Source: Octopus vulgaris (Eukaryota). From it: a DNA stretch of 64,000 bases. The translations under genes and the position numbers were made by a program. The stretch's first letter is position 1, and every line of letters begins with the position of its first letter. Below the pieces are notes generated by a model, which did no database searches, was not told the DNA's origin, and saw only the letters and a list, made by a program, of their open reading frames with translations. The stretch spans positions 21,948,001 through 22,012,000 of the forward strand of contig OX597827.1 in NCBI GenBank assembly GCA_951406725.2. Reading direction: 5' to 3'. This document shows, piece after piece, positions 3,342-28,451 of this stretch.

Positions 3342-3378
<37 letters not shown>

Positions 3379-3741
3379 GCAAGTGAGCGAACAAATGAAA
3401 GGAAGACGAAAGAGGCACTCAATAAATTTAGCAAGAATTGCATATATTATTATTTAAAACCAGTTTGATTTGGCCCCATGCAACTGAAAGTACTGAAGAA
3501 AAAAATCTAGTTCATTAGGCACAGGGGACTGAATAGGGAGATGTTGGAAAATCCAAGACCTTCAACTTCCAACATCTTTCCATTTGGCCATCTGAACCCA
3601 AGCTAGGTTCCTATAAGAAACCTACAAAACTTTAAGTTGCATGGGGTCAAATCAAACTGGTTTTAAATAATAATATATGCAACTCTTGCTAAATTTATTG
3701 AGTGCCTCTTTCTTTCTCCTTTCATTTGTTCGCTCACTTGC

Positions 3742-3776
<35 letters not shown>

Positions 3777-4108
3777 AAACTCAGTATGTGTGTATAAACC
3801 TGCATAACTTCTGAACTGATTTTCTTCAAACTGGGAACGCATATTTGGTTTTAGACTCTCAAAATTTTTCACATAATGAGTAATAGGGCCTCTGGGACTA
3901 GAAAATCCCCTATTTCCTGGAGTAAGTACGACTACTGTGGAGGAGATGGCTCTTTGCGAAGTAACTTTTCTTAAAATTCACTAAGATATGGATATTATTT
4001 ACCTTCTTTTTTATTGACATTTCATTATAAACGTACAATTGTTGTCTTAATTTATTACATCATATTTCTTGACATAATGTAGGCATAGGAGTGGCTGTGT
4101 GGTAAGTA
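2963..4108. repeat. Inverted duplication: arms ~2963-3485 and ~3636-4108, ~150-bp spacer
   Basis: The arms are reverse complements and encode near-identical peptides on opposite strands (ORFs 3242+ and 3663-), with small indels. Confidence 0.9.
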
Positions 4109-4250
4109 GCTTGCTTACCAACCACATGGTTCCGGGTTCGGTCCCACTGCGTGGTACCTTGGGAAAGTGTCTTCTACCATACCCTCAGGCCAACCAAAGC
4201 CTTGTGAGTGAATTTGGTAGATGGAAACTGAAAGAAGCCTGTCGTATATA

Positions 4251-4293
<43 letters not shown>

Positions 4294-4510
4294 TTGTGCA
4301 TATGTTTTTGTGTCTGTGTTTGTCACCCCCAACATTGCTTGACAACCAGTGCTGGTGTGTTTACGTCCCCCATAACTTAGCAGTTCAGCAAAAGACACCG
4401 ATAGAATAAGTACTAGGCTTACAAAGAATAAGTCTTGGGATCGATTTGCTCGACTAAAGGTGGTGCTCCAGCATGGCCACAGTCAAATGACTGAAACAAG
4501 TAAAAGAGTA
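4082..4510 (+). mobile_element. tRNA-derived SINE family A, full length
   Basis: Head GGCATAGGAGTGGCTGTGTGGTAAG...GGTTCGGTCCC (A/B-box like), ACCTTGGGAAAGTG core, internal (TA)n, 3' GAAACAAGTAAAAGAGTA. Multiple homologues in the window. Confidence 0.85.
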
Positions 4511-4879
4511 ATAATGTCTTTAAAGAAGAGATCCTCCATTTGTCGAAAATGGCAGTAGCAGAGAAAGTGAAAAGGAGAGAAAATGAATCGTCACATGAGA
4601 CTTCAATTAGATAATCACAAAATGCTACATGTACAGCTACTGCAAGAGCAATGGAAAGCGATGAGCAGTGTAGTATTTACATGGCCAGGAATGCTGCATT
4701 AACAGCTTCAGCCAATCCTCACCCCGTTACCATGTCATTTCTTTCATGTAGATTTCTCTCATGTGGTTCTGTTGAGCACATCCGACAGGCTTACTTTACC
4801 ACATAGATGTTGTTCCTATGTCTGCTAATTGTCTGGCATGGTAGCAGCAGCGCCGACAGCCACAAAGGAGAATATATCC

Positions 4880-5077
4880 ACTGAAAGCTTTTTGGCGTGC
4901 TCAAAAATCACATACCCCACCCCACCCACTTTTCCACAACAAGGTTAGAGATGGGAATCTTCCAAACAGATGTCACTTAGTCGAATTAGCCCTTCGTGTT
5001 TTGTCATCAATTAACTGCACCATATATGCAAACCATGCCATTTAAATCCAGAGCAATGCCAGGCATGTCTGCTAGTA
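4880..5077 (+). mobile_element. Degenerate Helitron-like 3' end
   Basis: Ends CCAGAGCAATGCCAGGC...TCTGCTAGT, a decayed hairpin plus CTAG, similar to the terminus at 45672-45710. Confidence 0.4.
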
Positions 5078-5405
5078 TATATATAAATATATATACATAC
5101 ATACACACATACACACACATGTATATATATATATATAATAATAATATTAGGGAGTAAATCCAAACTTACAGGGAAAAATCAGATTTAGGATTAAATCTAA
5201 TTTTACAGTATAAATATATATATTAAATTAGAGATAAAACCACTATTAGGCAAATCAAACAGTGAAAAACATAAACAAAACATAGAAATAAAATTAATTA
5301 ATATAATATACAAAATATATAAAATATAAAATTCAAAATTTAAATTATTTAAATTTAAAGTTAAAATAAAAAAAATTTTTTTTAATTATTAATTTCTACT
5401 TATAA

Positions 5406-5487
<82 letters not shown>

Positions 5488-5492
<5 letters not shown>

Positions 5493-7194
5493 TAAAGAGA
5501 GTCTGCCAAATGTTGACCCAACAGAGGGACCAGCTATCCGAGTTGATAGTTCCGTGGTAGCTAAGGCAATTAGAAGCATGAAGACAGGGAAAGCCCCAGG
5601 CCCATCAGGAATTACTGCAGAGATGCTCAAAATATCTGGCAGTGTCGGCTATAACCTAGTCACCCGCATAGTCAACCAGGTGATACACGAAGGAGTCATA
5701 CCCAATGACTGGTGTAGCAGCATACTAGTCAACTGCTACAAAGGTAAAGGTGATGCCCTGGATACAAATAATTACAGAGGTATGAAGCTGTTGGATCAGG
5801 TAATGAAGGTTACGGAGAGGGTCATAGCCCAACTAATTAGAGAGAGAGTTAGTTTAGATGAGATGCAGTTTGGGTTTGTCCCAGGGAAAAGCACCACTGA
5901 TGCTATATTCCTGGTAAGGCAGCTGCAGGAGAAATACCTAGCCAAGGATAAGCCCCTGTACCTGGCTTTCGTTGACATGGAGAAAACCTTTGATAGGGTC
6001 CCCCGATCCCTCATCTGGTGGTCAATGAGGAAACTAGGGATAGATGAATGGCTGGTGAGGGCTGTGCAAGCCATGTACAGAGATGCCGTAAGTAAGGTTA
6101 GAGTTGGCAACATGTACACAGAAGAATTCAAAGTAGAGGTTGGGGTCCACCAGGGTTCAGCACTCAGCCCCCTCCTATTTATCATAGTCCTCCAGGCAAT
6201 AACGGAGGAATTCAAGACAGGTTGCCCCTGGGAGCTCCTCTATGCTGACGACCTCGCTCTAATCGCTGAGTCACTATCAGAACTGGAGGAGAAGTTCCAG
6301 GTGTGGAAGGAGGGTTTAGAATCGAGGGGCCTTAGAGTCAACCTAGCTAAAACCAAAGTACTAATAAGTAGAAAGGTAGAAAACCCACAAATATCATCAG
6401 GAAGATGGCCCTGCTCGATCTGTAGAAAAGGTGTAGGTAGAAACTCTATAAGATGTACCCAGTGTAAGCTATGGACACATAAGAGGTGCAGCAATGTCAA
6501 AGGTAGGCTAACTGGGAAGATAGTTTTTGTATGTGGCAGGTGCTCTGGAGCACTGACCTCCGAAAATCTGCAGAAAACAACTTCTGTCACTTTCCGGGGG
6601 GAAAAACTAGAAGTAGTTGATAGTTTCCGCTATCTAGGTGACCAAGTCAGTAGTGGGGGTGGGTGCGCTGAAAGTGTAACTGCTAGAATAAGAATAGCCT
6701 GGGCAAAGTTTAGGGAGCTCTTACCTCTGCTGGTGACTAAAGGCCTCTCGCTCAGAGTAAAAGGCAGACTGTATGATGCATGTGTACGAACAGCTATGCT
6801 ACATGGCAGTGAAACATGGGCCGTGACTGCTGAGGACATGCGTAAGCTCGTGAGGAACGAAGCCAGTATGCTCCGATGGATGTGTAATGTCAGTGTACTT
6901 ACTCGACAGAGCGTTAGTACCTTGAGAGAAATGTTGTACCTAAGAAGCATCAGTTGTTGTGTGCAAGAGAGACGATTGCGCTGGTATGGTCATGTGGCGA
7001 GAATGGATGAAGAGAGGTGTGTGAGAAAGTGCCAATCCCTAGCAGTTGAGGGAACCCGTGGAAGAGGTAGACCCAGGAAAACCTGGGGCGAGGTGGTGAA
7101 GCACGACCTTCGGACGTTAGGTCTCACCATGGAAATGACTAGAGACCGAGACCTATGGAAGTATGCTGTGCGTGAGAAGACCCGGCAAGACTAG
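5488..7194 (+). CDS. RTE-clade non-LTR reverse transcriptase, 5'-truncated (no APE endonuclease), open 568-aa frame with internal PHD finger
   Basis: KAPGPSGITAE, NYRG.KLL, QFGF.PGKSTTDAIF, AFVDMEK.FD, GVHQGS.LSPLLF, YADD, FRYLG, RLRWYGHVARM and RGRPRKTW motifs. The ATG is supplied by the upstream (TA)n. Confidence 0.95.
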
Positions 7195-11604: not shown

Positions 11605-11644
<40 letters not shown>

Positions 11645-11721
11645 TTGAGTTGTGGGGTATCGCACGAGTGGGATTATATAAGAAAAAAGGTTTGAAAATG
11701 CAATTTAAACGATGTTTATTT

Positions 11722-11762
11722 ACTTAACCGGTTTCACTCTTTGGTAAAAGATTGTCAAAAGT
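11722..11762 (-). ncRNA. Hammerhead-ribozyme-like motif (U3-A8 variant), left-arm copy
   Basis: Reverse complement of 14994-15034. Confidence 0.45.
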
Positions 11763-13294
11763 TACATTTAAGGAAACATTGAATAATATGGGTTCAAAAA
11801 AAGTTTTTTACATAATTGTCACATTGAATATTATGCATTCAAAAAAGTTTTTTACATAATTGTCACATTGAATATTATGCATTCAAAAAAGTTTTTTACA
11901 TAATTGTCACATTGGATATTATGAATTCAAAAATGTTTTTTTATACATAATTGTCACATTATTTGGGAAAATTTGGCAGAAAAGGATAAAACAAATATAT
12001 TATTGGGAATTGGTTGCGTTAATTATTGGTTGTCGCAAATTGTCACATTACATGTATATATATACAATCTTTGGTATATATATACAGCGTTTTGACAGCA
12101 AAAATTAAAATGGATTTTTTGTCCATCTCAGAATATTTTAAGTATGTTTTTACTGACCTGTCAGTATTAGCAGAAAGGCTGAACTGAGAGAACAGAAGTA
12201 GCCAATGTGGTGTATACTTCCCCTTTATGCATGAATGATTTTGGGGTTATCAGGAGGTTAGTATGCGGGTGTGAATAGATGTGTCCGTGCCTGCTGGTCA
12301 GACAGCGTCTGTTTGTCACACACATATATATACACACAAACACACACACACACAACAACACACACACACACACACATAGTATACAAACACAAACCACATA
12401 CAAACAACACACACACACACAGAACACACACACCCACACACAACGCACCCACATATATCACATATACACACAGCACACAAATATAACATGTATCTATATA
12501 TAACATACACAGATATATAACACACATACACACACACACACACAACACACGCACACATACATACATAATATAAATATCACACAAATACACCTAGCATATA
12601 TATATACACACATACAATACACACATACAGCATGTAAGTAATATACATACACAATATATGCATGCAATATACATACGCAATACATACATATAATATATAT
12701 ATATATAGACAATGCATATACATATATAGACATATACATATAAATAGTGTTTACATACACATACATAGATGTACCACATATACACACAGCACACATACAT
12801 ACAATGCATACACATACACGTACGCATACATATAATATATATATACACACACACACACATAACATACATACACACACAATGCATACATATATATACACGC
12901 AATGCATATACATGTATTCATGCACATATAGCACACCTACAATATACATATATACAGTGCACACATACACACAAATATATACACTTAATTGTACACGTAC
13001 ATATACAATACACATACATACAATATACATATATACAATGCGCATGCAAATAATGTACATGTTTATACACACATAAACATGCAAATAAATATACACACAC
13101 ACACATACACACACACACATATATATACACATATATATATATATATATACACACATACATACATACATACATGCACATACATATATTTTTTCACACACAT
13201 ACACACACACATATATATATAAAAAAAAAAAAAAAAATTCACCACCCCCCACACACACAAATTACATACGTGTGTATGTATTTACATATGTATC

Positions 13295-13341
<47 letters not shown>

Positions 13342-14993
13342 TGTGTGTGTATATGCATGGTATGTGTGTATATGTTAGTACTTTGTTTGTGTGTATGTGC
13401 GGCATGTAGAGATATATTTGAGTGTGTACGCTATAGGTTTGTAATTTGTGTGTGTGGGGGGTGGTGAATTTTTTTTTTTTTTTTTTTTTTTTTTTATATA
13501 TATATGTGTGTGTGTATGTGTGTGAAAAAATATATGTATGTGCATGTATGTATGTGTGTATATATATATATATATATGTGTATATATATGTGTGTGTGTG
13601 TATGTGTGTGTGTGTGTATATTTATTTGCATGTTTATGTGTGTATAAACATGTACATTATTTGCATGCGCATTGTATATATGTATATTGTATGTATGTGT
13701 ATTGTATATGTACGTGTACAATTAAGTGTATATATTTGTGTGTATGTGTGCACTGTATATATGTATATTGTAGGTGTGCTATATGTGCATGAATACATGT
13801 ATATGCATTGCGTGTATATATATGTATGCATTGTGTGTGTATGTATGTTATGTGTGTGTGTGTGTATATATATATTATATGTATGCGTACGTGTATGTGT
13901 ATGCATTGTATGTATGTGTGTTGTGTGTATATGTGGTACATCTATGTATGTGTATGTAAACACTATTTATATGTATATGTGTATATATGTATATGCATTG
14001 TCTATATATATATATATTATATGTATGTATTGCGTATGTATATTGCATGCATATATTGTGTATGTATATTACTTACATGCTGTATGTGTGTATTGTATGT
14101 GTGTATATATATATGCTAGGTGTATTTGTGTGATATTTATATTATGTATGTATGTGTGCGTGTGTTGTGTGTGTGTGTGTGTATGTGTGTTATATATCTG
14201 TGTATGTTATATATAGATACATGTTATATTTGTGTGCTGTGTGTATATGTGATATATGTGGGTGCGTTGTGTGTGGGTGTGTGTGTTCTGTGTGTGTGTG
14301 TGTTGTTTGTATGTGGTTTGTGTTTGTATACTATGTGTGTGTGTGTGTGTGTGTGTTGTTGTGTGTGTGTGTGTTTGTGTGTATATATATGTGTGTGACA
14401 AACAGACGCTGTCTGACCAGCAGGCACGGACACATCTATTCACACCCGCATACTAACCTCCTGATAACCCCAAAATCATTCATGCATAAAGGGGAAGTAT
14501 ACACCACATTGGCTACTTCTGTTCTCTCAGTTCAGCCTTTCTGCTAATACTGACAGGTCAGTAAAAACATACTTAAAATATTCTGAGATGGACAAAAAAT
14601 CCATTTTAATTTTTGCTGTCAAAACGCTGTATATATATACCAAAGATTGTATATATATACATGTAATGTGACAATTTGCGACAACCAATAATTAACGCAA
14701 CCAATTCCCAATAATATATTTGTTTTATCCTTTTCTGCCAAATTTTCCCAAATAATGTGACAATTATGTATAAAAAAACATTTTTGAATTCATAATATCC
14801 AATGTGACAATTATGTAAAAAACTTTTTTGAATGCATAATATTCAATGTGACAATTATGTAAAAAACTTTTTTGAACCCATAATATCCAATGTGACAATT
14901 ATGTAAAAACTTTTTTGAATGCATAATATTCAATGTGACAATTATGTAAAAAACTTTTTTGAACCCATATTATTCAATGTTTCCTTAAATGTA

Positions 14994-15034
14994 ACTTTTG
15001 ACAATCTTTTACCAAAGAGTGAAACCGGTTAAGT
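14994..15034 (+). ncRNA. Hammerhead-ribozyme-like motif (U3-A8 variant), right-arm copy
   Basis: ACTT-TTGACAA-[TCTTT TACC AAAGA GT]-GAAA-CCGG-TT-AAGT: helix I ACTT/AAGT, palindromic ACCGGT helix III, GUU triplet. The helix II junction is imperfect. Confidence 0.45.
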
Positions 15035-15077
15035 AAATAAACATCGTTTAAATTGCATTTTCAAACCTTTTTTCTTA

Positions 15078-15108
<31 letters not shown>

Positions 15109-19870: not shown

Positions 19871-22800
19871 CATCATCATTACCATTATCATCATCATTAA
19901 TGTCCATTTTCCATGCAAGCATGGGTTGGACGGTTCGACCAGGTCTGGGAAGCCAGGAGGCTGCACCAGGCTCCAGTCTGATCTGGCAGTATTTCTACAG
20001 CTAGATACCTTTCCTAACACCAACCACTCTGTAGTGGGTACTTTTTACGTGCCACCGGCACAGAAGCCGGTCATGCGGTGCTGGCATCAGCCATGTTTGG
20101 ATGTTGCTTTTTACGTGCCACTGGCATGGGTATCACAACTACAATTTCCATTTGATTTTTATTTTGATGTTGATGTACTTGACTCAATAGGTCTCCTCGA
20201 GCACAGCAGGTTGCCCTACGATCCAAGGTTAGCACAGCAGGCTGTCCTGCGAGCCATGAACTCACTTCATTTGTCAGGTCTTCGCAGTCACAGTATATCT
20301 CCAGAGGTCTCGGTCTTTCATCATTGCCTCTGTGAGGCCCAATGTTCGAAGGTCATACTTGACCAGCTCATCCCATGTCTTCCTGGGTCTACCTCTACCC
20401 CGGATTCCTTCAACTGTTTGGGAGTGGCACTTCTTCACACATCTCTCCTCATTCATCAATAGTACATGACCATACCAGCGCAAACGCCTCTCCTGCACAC
20501 CACATCCAATACTTCTTATGTCCAATAGTTCTCTCAGGGCACTTACACTCTGCCGTGCAAGCACACTGACATTACACATCCAGTGGATCATGCTAGCTTC
20601 ATTTCTTTCAAGCCTATGCATGTCCTCTGCAATCATAGCCCATGTTTCACTGCCATGAAGCATGACAGTTCGCACACATGCGTCATACAATCTAGCTTTC
20701 ACTCTGAGCTAGAGACCCTTTGTCACCAGTAGGGGAAAAAGCTTTTTAAACTTTGCCCAGGTTATTCTTATTCTAGTAGTAACACTCTGAGCATCGACCC
20801 CAACTAATAACTTGGTCACCTAGGTAGTGGAAGCTATCAACTACTTCTAGTTTCTCCCCCAGTAGTGTGATGGAATCTGTTTTCTGAGTATCTGTGGTGT
20901 CTATTGTCCCTGTGCATCTGCCACACATGAAAGCTATCTTCTCAGTTAATTTTCCTTTGATGTTGTTGCACCTCTTATGTGTCCATAGCTTACACTGGGT
21001 ACATCTTATGGAGTTTCTACCTATACCTTTTCTATAGATTGAGCAGGGTCACCTACCTGAGTGGGTGTGTGATGAGTTCCCTTCCTACTTAATAGAACTT
21101 TGGTCTTTGCTACATTGACTCTAAGGCCTTTTGATTCTAAACCTAGCTTCCACACACGAAATTTCTTTTCTAGTTCTGGTAGTGGTTCTGCTATGAGGGC
21201 CAGGTCATCAGCATAGAGGAGCTTCCAGGGGCAACCCATCTTGAATTCTTCTGTTATTGCCTGGAGGACTATGATGAATAAAAGGGGACTGAAAGTTGAA
21301 CCTTGGTAGACCCCTACTTCTACCCGGAATTCTTCACTATACTCATTGCCAATCCTAACCTTACTAACGGCCTCTCTGTAAAGGGTCTGTACAGCCCTTA
21401 TTAACCATTCATCAATCTCCAGTTTCCACATCACCCACCAGATAAGGGACCGGGAGACCCTGTCAAAGACTTTCTCCAAGTCCACAAAAGCTAAGTATAG
21501 AGGTTTATCTTTAGCTAGGTATTTCTCCTGCAGTTGTCGAACCAAGAATATGGCATCAGTGGTGCTTCTACCCGGCACAAAACTGAACTGCATCTCATCT
21601 AAGCAGACTCTCTCCCTGATGAGATAGGCTATAACCCTCTCTGTGACCTTCATCAGCTGATCCAGCAGTTTGATACGCCTGTAGTTATTTCTCTCTAGAG
21701 CATCACCTTTACCCTTGTAGCTATTGACTATGGTGCTTCTATGCCAGTCGTTGAGTATGACTCCATCATGAACTACTTGGTTTACAATGGAGGTGACTAG
21801 GCCATAGCCCACACCACCAGATGTTTTAAGCATCTCAGCAGTGATTCCTGATGGGCCAGGGGCTTTTCCTGGCTTCATACCTTTAATTGCTTTATCTACT
21901 AGGGAGCTATCTATTTGGATAGCTGGTCCCTCTACTGGGTCAACATTTGGCAGGCTCTACTCCTCCCATTCATTCTCCACATTCAGCGGTCTTTCACAGT
22001 GGCTTCTCCAAGTCTCTTTCTTTTCTGAATCACTAAAAGCAAGCGCCCCATCATCCAGCAGGTCTTTTGTTAGCCGCTCTCCAGCCATCTATTTAAAACT
22101 GTATACAGCTATGGTACGACCACACTTGGAATTCGCATCATCAGTTTGGAACCCCTATCTTGCACAGAACATTGACCTCCTGGAATCTGTCCAGAGACGT
22201 GCAAACAAACGCATACCCTCCATCAGACACCTACCATATTCTGAGCGCCTTGTTTCCCTGGGCATGGATTCACTGAAGCTCCGGCGTTTGGCGACGGACT
22301 TGGTAAACACCCACAAAGTTATCAACCACCTCACCAACAACAACACTGAACACCTTTTTGATCTCCATGTGTCTAACACACGTGGACATGCCTACAAAGT
22401 CAGAAAACAATACAGCTCCCATGACTTTCGGAAACATTTTTCACGCTCAGAGTTGCTGAAGCATGGAATAAACTGCCTGCGTCAGTTGTTGACTGCCATG
22501 ACACTGCATCTTTTAAGGCCCTCATGCTTTCCGAAATCCGCCGAAACTACACCTGATTATATATACACTTTAGATGAGTTGTAGTGCACCTGAGCACTGT
22601 ACACAATTATTATTATTATTATTATTATTATTCAAAGACATTTCTCTCCTGTGACATCACAATTTTCTCTCACACACTGTCTTGCAATTCGAAATACCTC
22701 AGTTCTTTAGTCCTCACATCGCTGGACACTAGCAAACCTCTTCTTTTCCGCTTCACTCTTGGCTATGTATACCTGCTGCCCAGCCTCCCTTTTAGCTACC

Positions 22801-24921: not shown

Positions 24922-25185
24922 TATCATCATCATCATCATTTAACGTCTGTTGTCCATGCTGGCATAGGTTGGATGATTTGACCAGGGCTGGTAGAAGGCT
25001 GCATCAGACTCCAGTCTGATATGGCATGGTTTTCTATGGTCGGATGCCCTTTCTAATACCAACCACTCTGAGAGTGTAATGTGTGCTTTTGCATGCCACC
25101 AGCATGGGTGCCATTTGCATAACACCAGTATCTGCCACAACATAACGCCAAAGGTCTTGGTCACTGGCTCTGTGACACCCAACAC
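24922..25185 (-). mobile_element. RTE 3'-tail element
   Basis: (CAT)n plus the conserved RTE 3' core and the DLWRY ORF end. Confidence 0.8.
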
Positions 25186-26130
25186 TCGAAAGGAACTCAG
25201 CCAGTTTGCCTCCGTCAGGCCCAATGCTCAAAACGAACTCAGCCACCTTGCCTCTGCCAGGCCCAATGCTCAAAACGAACTCAGCCACCTTGCCTCCGTC
25301 AGGCCCAATGCTCAAAACGAACTCAGCCACCTTGCCTCCGTCAGGCCCAATGCTCAAAACGAACTCAGCCACTTTGCCTCCATCAGGCCCAATGCTCAAA
25401 ACGAACTCAGCCACCTTGCCTCCGTCAGGCCCAATGCTCAAAACGAACTCAGCCACCTTGCCTCCGTCAGGCCCAATGCTCAAAACGAACTCAGCCACTT
25501 TGCCTCCATCAGGCCCAATGCTCAAAACGAACTCAGCCACTTTGCCTCCATCAGGCCCAATGCTCAAAACGAACTCAGCCACTTTGCCTCCGCCAGGCCC
25601 AATGCTCAAAACGAACTCAGCCACCTTGCCTCCGTCAGGCCCAATGCTCAAAACGAACTCAGCCACCTTGCCTCCGTGAGGCCCATGCTCAAAACGAACT
25701 CAGCCGCTTTGCCTCCATCAGGCCCAATGCTCAAAACGAACTCAGCCACTTTGCCTCCGCCAGGCCCAATGCTCAAAACGAACTCAGCCACCTTGCCTCC
25801 GTCAGGCCCAATGCTCAAAACGAACTCAGCCACCTTGCCTCCGTGAGGCCCATGCTCAAAACGAACTCAGCCGCTTTGCCTCCATCAGGCCCAATGCTCA
25901 AAACGAACTCAGCCACTTTGCCTCCGCCAGGCCCAATGCTCAAAACGAACTCAGCCACCTTGCCTCCGTCAGGCCCAATGCTCAAAACGAACTCAGCCAC
26001 CTTGCCTCCGTCAGGCCCAATGCTCAAAACGAACTCAGCCACCTTGCCTCCGTGAGGCCCATGCTCAAAACGAACTCAGCCGCTTTGCCTCCATCAGGCC
26101 CAATACTTAAAAGAACTTAACCACTTTGCA
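25186..26130. repeat. 42-bp minisatellite (~22 copies) with higher-order structure
   Basis: Unit AGGCCCAATGCTCAAAACGAACTCAGCCACCTTGCCTCCGTC; a 41-bp variant recurs at ~25676, ~25843 and ~26052. Confidence 0.95.
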
Positions 26131-27002: not shown

Positions 27003-28451
27003 AGTACTACTAGCGAACAGTGGTCCCGGTGCGCGCACTCGCGCTAGCTAGTCGTAAGTAGTCGATCCCGCAACGTCTTTTTAACCCTAACCCTAACCTT
27101 AGTTTGTTTATAAAAATAAATTGGCGAAGTTTCGCATGTCGTAGATCAGATTTCCGTCGATTTCCGTAAAAAACTTTTATTTTTTTTACATAAGTAATGA
27201 GAGCGAAAGAGACTAAGAGGAAGCGATTTTACGACGAGAAGGTTTCACTTTGAAGTCGGCCTGTGTGTGTTTGATGGGGTGTGGGAGACAGACAGTATGT
27301 TGTGTAAGTGAAGTGCTTCTGTTAGTGTGTGCGAAGAGACAGAGAGAGTAATGTGTGAAAGAGAGAGATAACTGATTTTTTACTCGGTGTATGTGTATAT
27401 GTATGTATGCATGTATGTGTGTGTGTGTGTATGTATCTATGTATGTGTGTGTGTGTAAGTATGTGTGTGTGTATGTATGTATGTATGGCCGATTCATGCG
27501 TAATTTTTTACTCGGTGTATGTGTATATGTATGTCTGCATGTATGTGTGTGTGTGTATGTATCTATGTGTGTGTGTGTGTAAGTATGTGTGTGTGTATGT
27601 ATGTATGTATGTGTGTGTGTGTGTATGTATCTATGTATGTGTGTGTGTGTATGTATGTATGTATGGCCGATTCATAGTAATTTTTTACTCGGTGTATGTG
27701 TATATGTATGTCTGTCTCTTCACACACACTAACAGAAGCACTTCACTTACACAACATACTGTCTGTCTCCCACACCCCATCAAACACACACAGGCCGACT
27801 TCAAAGTGAAACCTTCTCGTCGTAAAATCGCTTCCTCTTAGTCTCTTTCGCTCTCATTACTTATGTAAAAAAATAAAAGTTTTTTACGGAAATCGACGGA
27901 AATCTGTGCTACTACAACCGAAACTATGCCAATAAATTATTTATTTACTTAGTTTAAAAAAATTATTTACTTTGCGTTTTATTTACTTTGTTCGAAAAAT
28001 ATTATTTAATTTTCTTTGATATGTTTTCAGCCTTGAAATACAAACATACGCGTAGGATCGACTACTTAGGTACTACTTGAGAACAGTGGTCCCGGTGCGC
28101 GCACTCGCGTAGTCGCGCATCCGCGCTAGCTAGTCGTGACTAGTCGATCCTAGAAAGACTACCTAGCAAGGTAAATAAAACACAAAATAAATAATGGATC
28201 TTTTCGCTTATAATAATTTTTTTACACAAAGTAAATAAAACACAAAAACACAAAGTAAATAATATTTTTAAACAAAGTAAATAACACAAAAATACAAAGC
28301 AAGGATCGACTAGTCACGACTAGCTAGCGCGGATGCGCGCGTACGCGAGTGCGCGCACCAGGACGACTGTTCTGGAGTAGTACCCTACATACGACTAGCT
28401 AGCGCGGATGCGCGAGTGCGCACACCGGGACCACTGTTCGCTAGTAGTACC
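27003..28451. mobile_element. Merlin-like non-autonomous DNA transposon with internal long IR (27119-27343 / 27711-27933) and (AACCCT)n
   Basis: TIR (A/G)GTACTACTAGCGAACAGTGGTCCCGGTG...; perfect 8-bp TSD GCGATGCC (26995-27002, 28452-28459). Confidence 0.85.
28069..28384. mobile_element. Related MITE nested in the right TIR of the element above
   Basis: GGTACTACTTGAGAACAGTGGTCCCGG...GACTGTTCTGGAGTAGTACC; flanks CTACTTA / CTACATA. Confidence 0.8.

What the first reader, a model, noticed from the sequence alone, without database searches (positions are those of the whole stretch)
11641..15081. 3.4-kb hairpin locus: 1.6-kb arms of mostly low-complexity DNA capped by a hammerhead-like motif
Seen: near-identical arms, including ~950 bp of cryptic TA/TG sequence preserved almost base for base, which suggests a recent event. 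The arms still differ (4 vs 5 units of the 44-bp tandem, a few substitutions). The left side has 34 extra nt (11641-11674), as expected for a PLE 3' end, and the hammerhead-like motif lies about 80 nt inside it. Inference: a non-autonomous retro-element whose cargo is microsatellite-like DNA, which would spread pseudo-microsatellite and form a very long dsRNA (ADAR or siRNA substrate) if transcribed.
Basis: partly seen in the sequence, partly recalled or inferred. Interest (0 to 1): 0.72.

Follow-up and report, generated by a model that had tools for sequence, protein, structure and literature searches.

The report
Mirror-image stump of young Penelope retroelement
The 3.4-kb hairpin is two back-to-back copies of the untranslated tail end of a young, protein-coding Penelope-type jumping gene present in hundreds of copies, likely made when both strands of a cut (TA)n target each primed a copy of its RNA, and the intact parent likely makes its copying enzyme by a one-base ribosome slip.

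Summary
The hairpin is in the sequence as described: arms 11675-13266 and 13437-15081, two substitutions, one 44-bp unit, a 36-37-nt tail on the left only. It is not a non-autonomous family with cargo. Both arms are the 3' end of the 2.2-kb 3' UTR of an autonomous 5.8-kb Penelope-like element (RT, CX4CxxC linker, C-terminal GIY-YIG; Neptune/Nematis type), with 304 tailed and 242 untailed exact ends in the genome. Head-to-head truncated copies with one tail are the known Penelope layout; 34 of 36 sampled pairs have one tail. All 99 sampled ends stop at one of two TA tracts inside the element. Here neither arm contains the other, which argues for two priming events, not snap-back. The microsatellite-like UTR is peculiar to this family. 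The parent has a separate ORF1 and one in-phase U UUU UUA in the ORF1/RT overlap, kept in five sister families (33 of 39 junctions); 60 of 69 distant ORF1 relatives end near the matching FL/FF. The scan noted this frameshift, the one-tail rule and the U3-A8 hammerhead before on other DNA. Transcription, editing, cleavage and frameshifting are untested; no read bridging this junction was seen.

The parts
11608..11638 (.). Left half of the (TA)n target site
   Evidence: sequence
11638..11674 (-). 36-37-nt tail: the stretch between the element's two internal TA tracts; present on this arm only
   Evidence: in tandem copies it runs on into (AT)5 and the ORF1 leader
11675..11681 (-). Internal TA tract, the upstream end site (where untailed arms stop)
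   Evidence: 39 of 39 untailed ends stop here
11722..11762 (-). Minimal type I hammerhead-like motif, U3-A8 core, palindromic helix III (CCGG), U-U at 10.1/11.1; cleavage untested
11776..11960 (-). 44-bp array, 4 units (family norm 5; 66 of 99 ends show the 5-unit pattern)
11961..12316 (-). Non-repetitive segment of the 3' UTR
   Evidence: 40 of 40 scored hits about 100% identical, 899 candidates
12317..13266 (-). Microsatellite-like (TG/TA) 3' UTR body, left (tailed, shorter) arm; arm ends at position about 4161 of the 5824-nt parent
13266..13266 (.). Head-to-head junction; one base shared exactly by both arms (3 of 5 imperfectly); unique in the genome
   Evidence: (loose ends at 13266)
13267..13436 (+). 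Apparent loop: further 5' UTR sequence that belongs to the right arm and has no partner
13437..14393 (+). Microsatellite-like 3' UTR body, right (untailed, longer) arm
14394..14753 (+). Non-repetitive segment, right arm; identical to the left copy
14754..14980 (+). 44-bp array, 5 units
14994..15034 (+). Hammerhead-like motif, right copy; predicted cleavage after 15030
15076..15108 (.). Internal TA tract merging with the right half of the (TA)n target; no tail

Best explanation
The hairpin is a non-coding, 5'-truncated, head-to-head double copy of the 3' UTR of a young autonomous Neptune-type Penelope-like retroelement, likely made in one insertion in which both nicked strands of a (TA)n target primed reverse transcription at two TA tracts inside the element's RNA. 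Shown: identity of the arms with the parent UTR, the parent's RT and GIY-YIG frame, the (TA)n flanks, the two end sites 36-37 nt apart, one tail per pair, shared haplotype of paired arms. Inferred: the GIY-YIG domain nicks (TA)n on both strands; one 3' end pairs with the downstream AU tract (giving the tail) and the other with the upstream tract (no tail); both cDNAs stop early inside the microsatellite-like UTR and are joined end to end with little homology; the left arm's two substitutions and lost 44-bp unit are copying errors or later changes. The locus itself most likely does nothing; it would form about 1.6 kb of double-stranded RNA only if read through. The parent likely makes an abundant helical ORF1 protein and a rarer ORF1-RT-EN fusion by a -1 slip at U UUU UUA.
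For: Arms match a full-length copy at positions 4161-5824 and 3988-5787, 4 substitutions per arm. Parent frame of 776 aa has RVT_1 (E 6e-08), CGRPNCKTC linker and a C-terminal LLYVIRCEGCHEDYIG motif. Exact counts: 304 tailed ends, 242 untailed ends, 273 body 31-mers, reversed controls 0. Of 99 sampled 3' ends, 39 stop at the first TA tract, 50 at the second, both into host (TA)n, and 10 run on into a tandem unit. 34 of 36 head-to-head pairs have one tail; the other 2 are internal to complex arrays (a 37th had no simple junction). Paired arms differ by 0.19 substitutions in the 360-nt segment (17 of 21 identical) against 1.17 between loci. In 12 of 34 pairs, 9 by over 200 nt and including this one, the untailed arm is the longer, so neither arm contains the other. 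A purified Poseidon element nicks and extends both strands and starts at two internal sites that bound the tail (PMC11167929). Frameshift: T6A occurs once in 3611 coding nt, in the overlap; T6 in 11 of 13 copies, T5 in 2, never T7; bridged without gaps by contigs of 3 of 4 runs; in phase in 33 of 39 junctions of five sister families, four of which lack an ATG for the RT frame; FL/FF within the last 45 aa of 60 of 69 ORF1 relatives against a shuffle mean of 6, maximum 13.
Against: Copies were sampled from top hits, many chosen by a tailed end or by pairing, so proportions are biased to young and paired insertions. In PMC11167929 priming is at sites not homologous to the cut DNA, so pairing-assisted priming here is an inference from end positions alone. 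9 of 36 junctions have gaps of 16 nt or more with filler or rearrangement, which a simple two-cDNA join does not explain. No target-site duplication can be read in (TA)n. No stable RNA structure is predicted after the slippery site (z +1.4), and this family has an ATG in the RT frame overlapping the ORF1 stop, so re-initiation is possible here. The hammerhead has U-U at 10.1/11.1 and a weak Rfam score.
Confidence: 0.8

Rival explanations
1. Same parent, but the second arm arose by self-priming or a template jump: the first cDNA stopped and jumped onto an antisense transcript or another cDNA, which it copied back to the first TA tract.
For: Proposed for Adineta Penelopes from palindromes at junctions (PMC3846280). 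Paired arms share a haplotype. The tailed arm is the longer in 22 of 34 pairs, as snap-back predicts. A small hairpin can be drawn across this junction (z -2.0).
Against: Plain snap-back cannot give 12 of 34 pairs, including this one, where the short arm has the tail and the long arm has the spacer. Most junctions are not palindromic. A jump to a second molecule is not excluded.
Confidence: 0.15
2. A separate non-autonomous retro-element whose cargo is microsatellite DNA.
For: The locus has no coding frame; the body travels with this terminus in hundreds of places.
Against: The body is contiguous with the RT-EN stop in all 35 arms that reach it; 5' ends are scattered; this junction is single-copy.
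Confidence: 0.02
3. Fold-back chimera or misassembly at this locus.
For: Long inverted repeats in low-complexity DNA are error-prone to assemble; the two left-arm alleles are private (1 of 59 and 1 of 58 copies).
Against: A fold-back read would not give a tail on one side, a spacer in the other arm's orientation, canonical ends in (TA)n on both sides and unrelated flanks; 35 other loci show the same layout with different junctions.
Confidence: 0.03

Closest known systems
Canonical C-terminal EN+ Penelope-like elements, Neptune/Nematis type (Craig et al. 2021, PMC8557442; seen: abstract, Introduction, passages, supplement search rows; figures not visible)
   Same: RT, CX2-5CxxC linker, C-terminal GIY-YIG with two internal cysteines; partial tandems; adjacent inverted 5'-truncated copy; 30-40-bp tail at one end; hammerhead near the 3' end; (TA)n bias.
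   Different: Described as single-ORF; here a 447-aa ORF1 overlaps the RT frame at a conserved U UUU UUA. The Fig. 1 legend mentions an ORF1 separated by a frameshift with a pseudoknot without naming the clade in the text I could see. The 2.2-kb microsatellite-like UTR is not described there.
Poseidon_Ac (PAc) of Anolis, in vitro (Frangieh et al. 2024, PMC11167929; seen: parts 1-2 of 4, whole main text and start of methods)
   Same: Both target strands cut and extended; two internal start sites that bound the tail; AT-rich targets; hammerhead upstream; a stem near the start sites (tail pairs with the leader here).
   Different: PAc is Poseidon clade, single ORF, and starts at sites not homologous to the target; here both end sites are TA tracts matching the (TA)n target.
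Adineta vaga Penelope elements (Arkhipova et al. 2013, PMC3846280; seen: passages and Discussion)
   Same: Head-to-head inverted ends with optional 31-bp tail; 0.9-1.5-kb spacers before the 3' pLTR attributed to captured host DNA; proposed capture of simple-repeat flanks.
   Different: Their junctions carry palindromes and spacers differ between copies; here the long UTR is fixed in the family and most junctions show 0-7-nt overlaps.
Minimal hammerheads of metazoan PLEs, U3-A8 variant of Schistosoma Cercyon (Cervera and de la Pena 2014, PMC4209133; seen: passages)
   Same: U3-A8 core, short helix I, palindromic helix III, position in the terminal repeat; same core in three sister families.
   Different: This family has U-U rather than a purine-pyrimidine pair closing helix II; activity untested.
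HIV-1 gag-pol -1 frameshift (PMC4373837, PMC3561942; seen: start of abstracts in a search listing)
   Same: Same U UUU UUA heptamer, downstream frame in -1.
   Different: No stable stem-loop predicted downstream; the ORF1 stop often lies 30 nt on (20 of 60 relatives).

Membership tests
EN+ Penelope-like elements (parent) | [quoted passage not shown] | tested here: met
   RVT_1 hit; motif LLYVIRCEGCHEDYIG and later H residues read from the translation. Pfam gave no GIY-YIG hit; the domain call rests on the motif.
EN+ Penelope-like elements (parent) | Partial tandems, inverted 5'-truncated copy, 30-40-bp tail at one end | tested here: met
EN+ Penelope-like elements (parent) | Hammerhead motif in the terminal repeat | tested here: inconclusive
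   Core and helices present with U3-A8 in four families; Rfam 11.6 bits, E 2.6; cleavage not tested
EN+ Penelope-like elements (parent) | Single ORF (as stated in PMC8557442 and PMC11167929) | tested here: not met
   Two overlapping frames as the family state; a fused product is likely but not shown
Neptune/Nematis clades | CX2-5CxxC linker between RT and EN | tested here: met
   CGRPNCKTC
Neptune clade | Microsatellite (TA)n insertion bias | tested here: met
   89 of 89 outer ends abut (TA)n
Neptune clade | RT phylogeny groups with named Neptune elements rather than Nematis | not tested
   No named reference proteins were available through the sequence tools
Naiad | N-terminal GIY-YIG, no canonical hammerhead | tested here: not met
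   EN is C-terminal
Non-autonomous PLE derivative or retrozyme family | Many ORF-less copies with a shared boundary or unit | tested here: not met
   Junction unique, breakpoints scattered, body contiguous with the ORF
Programmed -1 ribosomal frameshift | In-phase X XXY YYZ heptamer in the overlap, conserved | tested here: met
Programmed -1 ribosomal frameshift | Downstream stimulatory RNA structure | tested here: inconclusive
   No stable local fold, z +1.4; pseudoknots and long-range pairs not modelled
Programmed -1 ribosomal frameshift | Trans-frame protein observed | not testable with these tools
   Needs reporter, ribosome profiling or mass spectrometry

The most novel reading that the evidence does not exclude
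A widespread Neptune-type lineage is not single-ORF but gag-pol-like, making RT-EN by a -1 slip at U UUU UUA that is stimulated by a ribosome queued behind the ORF1 stop about 30 nt on rather than by RNA structure; and it inserts by priming both target strands through base pairing of (TA)n with two AU tracts in its RNA, which sets the tail length and yields head-to-head hairpins. This family has also fixed 1.4 kb of pseudo-microsatellite in its UTR and seeds hundreds of kilobase-long hairpins.
Probability: 0.4. Interest if true: 0.7.

Novelty: new variant of a known kind. Interest (0 to 1): 0.42.

Why it matters
The locus is an ordinary by-product, but the family is young, has intact copies and records its own mechanism. 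Its pairs separate two models for the inverted ends of Penelope elements, a point that PMC8557442 lists as unresolved: about a third cannot be snap-back products. Both ends fall on TA tracts that match the target, which makes pairing-assisted internal priming directly testable with the published in vitro assay. The conserved slippery site would change the single-ORF description of these elements and offer a frameshift with no evident RNA stimulator. Practically, a share of what repeat finders call microsatellite in this genome is retroelement UTR, and hundreds of such inverted copies are candidate long double-stranded RNA sources.

Tried and rejected
Junction in independent DNA: contigs of 4 DNA runs laid on 13236-13300 showed both parental sides but none of the 24 listed pieces bridged 13266 (12 more not shown); a hole proves nothing and the individuals may differ. 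Expression: no RNA holder listed on record; three runs guessed to be RNA cover the ORFs as contigs but cannot show strand, level or editing, so A-to-I editing and small RNAs were not tested. Rfam on the whole window gave only microRNA models on simple repeats, all below gathering score. ORF1: no Pfam family shared by more than 1 of 69 members; Atlas best score 0.76, a lead only; confident all-helical model, pLDDT 91.6, no Foldseek match at E 0.001, best VIA Z 8.5 to unrelated helical bundles, inconclusive. No solved-structure relative of ORF2 by sequence. Two different source elements for the two arms: rejected, since paired arms share haplotypes and the left-arm alleles are private. Homopolymer error as the cause of the two ORFs: rejected. 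Host gene context: 136 window frames of 75 aa or more gave only LINE RT/PHD hits and repeat artefacts; short exons would be missed. One diagnostic pattern matched nothing and was corrected; a miscount was corrected. Arkhipova 2006 and 2017 were not held; either, or Fig. 1 of PMC8557442, may already show a frameshifted ORF1 in Neptune. Searches that found no text on it; none on a microsatellite-like PLE UTR.

Full report
Observation. The two halves of 11641-15081 align as arms 11675-13266 and 13437-15081 with two substitutions, one 44-bp unit and a few microsatellite or homopolymer indels. The left side has 36-37 extra bases. Both outer ends abut (TA)n. About 950 of 1626 bases of an arm are TG/TA-rich. 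The window lies at G000:C14:21948001 in a 2.8-Gb genome; earlier scan notes call it octopus, which I did not test.

What the arms are. The terminus and the non-repetitive segment each returned 40 of 40 scored hits at about 100% identity, from 1251 and 899 candidates. Longer stretches around 20 of them showed tandem units 5.8 kb apart with coding frames. [quoted passage not shown] The window arms map to positions 4161-5824 and 3988-5787 of such a unit, each with 4 substitutions against a full-length copy. All 35 sampled arms that reach the RT-EN stop carry this UTR at 1.9-2.2 kb to the hammerhead. So the low-complexity body is native UTR, and the apparent loop is just more UTR in the right arm. 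Exact counts are 304 tailed ends, 242 untailed ends and 273 copies of a body 31-mer; these are lower bounds. The window junction occurs once. By the linker, the C-terminal endonuclease and the (TA)n bias the parent is of Neptune/Nematis type as defined in PMC8557442; I built no tree.

How the hairpin arose. I examined 60 stretches of about 9.9 kb for this family plus the window, chosen from top hits and biased to tailed, paired and young copies. They hold 99 distinct 3' ends: 39 stop at an internal TATATA, 50 stop 36-37 nt further on at a second TA tract, and 10 continue through that tract into the next unit's leader. Of 37 head-to-head candidates one had no simple junction; 34 of the other 36 have exactly one tail. 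Paired arms share their haplotype: 17 of 21 pairs are identical over 360 nt, mean 0.19 substitutions against 1.17 between loci. In 22 of 34 pairs the tailed arm is longer; in 12, including this locus, the untailed arm is. In those the short arm has the tail and the long arm has the spacer, so neither could be copied from the other by snap-back. The simplest reading is two priming events from opposite target strands, as a purified Poseidon protein does in vitro, where two internal start sites also bound the tail (PMC11167929). That element starts at sites without homology to the target; here both sites are TA tracts matching the (TA)n target, and three sister families have TA tracts at their corresponding ends, so pairing-assisted priming is inferred. 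About half of the junctions overlap by 0-7 bases; this one shares one exact base. Nine have gaps of 16 bases or more with filler or rearrangement. A jump to a second molecule, as proposed in PMC3846280, remains possible. The layout itself is textbook: an adjacent inverted 5'-truncated copy and a 30-40-bp tail at one end (PMC8557442; PMC3846280).

Hammerhead. The motif reads helix I ACUU/AAGU, core UUGACAA, a 5-bp helix II closed by U-U, GAAA, palindromic CCGG, UU. Three sister families have the same U3-A8 core with different helices, and this variant is reported for Schistosoma Cercyon, where such minimal motifs cleave poorly and as dimers (PMC4209133). Rfam support is weak. In a read-through transcript of this locus each motif would likely be paired with the opposite arm.

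The UTR. In the printed part sister families at 53-61% RT-frame identity reach their hammerhead 0.2-1.0 kb after the stop with no TG/TA-rich body, so the pseudo-microsatellite is a family-specific gain; capture of a simple-repeat flank, as proposed for Adineta, is a plausible but untested origin.

The parent's two frames. The RT frame is -1 to ORF1, and the only TTTTTTA in 3611 coding bases lies in phase in the 60-nt overlap. It is T6 in 11 of 13 distinct copies, T5 in 2, never T7, and contigs from 3 of 4 public runs bridge it without a gap. From 40 further stretches (3 without an N-terminal hit) 39 junctions of five sister families were read: 34 hold the heptamer, 33 in phase; four families have no ATG for the RT frame. 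Among 155 ORF1 relatives I kept the 69 of 340-560 aa: 60 have FL or FF, the peptide the heptamer encodes, in the last 45 residues (shuffle mean 6, maximum 13; upstream windows 4 and 6), and 20 of the 60 stop exactly 10 codons later. In this genome the ORF1 stop lies 33, 30, 30, 60, 60 and 90 nt on in the six families, the last from one decayed copy. No stable fold follows the site. The idea that a queued ribosome replaces the RNA stimulator came from earlier scan notes; I tested the spacing, not the mechanism, and related sequences are not independent. ORF1's first 247 residues are predicted all-helical with no assignable fold. A killifish Neptune is reported with two ORFs and no mention of frameshifting (PMC12602865, passages); Neptune-like elements with esterases are mentioned in PMC5408684 (passages). 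The bioRxiv retrozyme paper was seen as abstract only. The legend of Fig. 1 in PMC8557442 mentions a frameshifted ORF1 without naming the clade, and two key papers were not held, so prior description cannot be excluded.

Verdict. The value lies in the parent family: testable two-site priming on TA tracts and a likely conserved -1 frameshift.

Noticed in passing
window 5386-7194 (+) and 20262-21958 (-): Two LINE remnants with RT followed by a PHD-like finger, about 80% alike and facing each other 13-15 kb apart, on either side of the hairpin.
   Followed up: partly
window 3352-3768: A 417-bp fold-back with 147-nt arms (93%) sitting between (TA)n runs, with some flank sequence also inverted; family not identified.
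   Followed up: no
window 27169-27885: 175-nt inverted arms (97%) enclosing a 124-bp tandem of TGTA-rich sequence; looks like a fold-back or terminal-inverted-repeat element carrying microsatellite.
   Followed up: no
window 25178-26129: 42-bp tandem array, 22.8 copies, 93% matches, open in several frames.
   Followed up: no
L066:1745-1802: The tail (ACTCGTG) pairs with the ORF1 leader (CACGAGT) around the second TA tract; a sister family keeps a similar pair (L220). It may present the priming site.
   Followed up: partly
L066:3118-3150 and sister families: GACAC lies exactly 21 nt after the slippery heptamer in five families, reading DT in ORF1 and H in the RT frame; a protein constraint or a stimulator motif.
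   Followed up: partly
L219; L189: Elements of different families lie next to or inside each other's TA-rich ends, consistent with shared targeting.
   Followed up: no
L061-L062 (G000:C16:11404400-11417200); L145-L146 (G000:C26:33638900-33650900): Complex insertions with two near-full-length units joined head to head through short tandem and inverted pieces, over 11 kb.
   Followed up: partly
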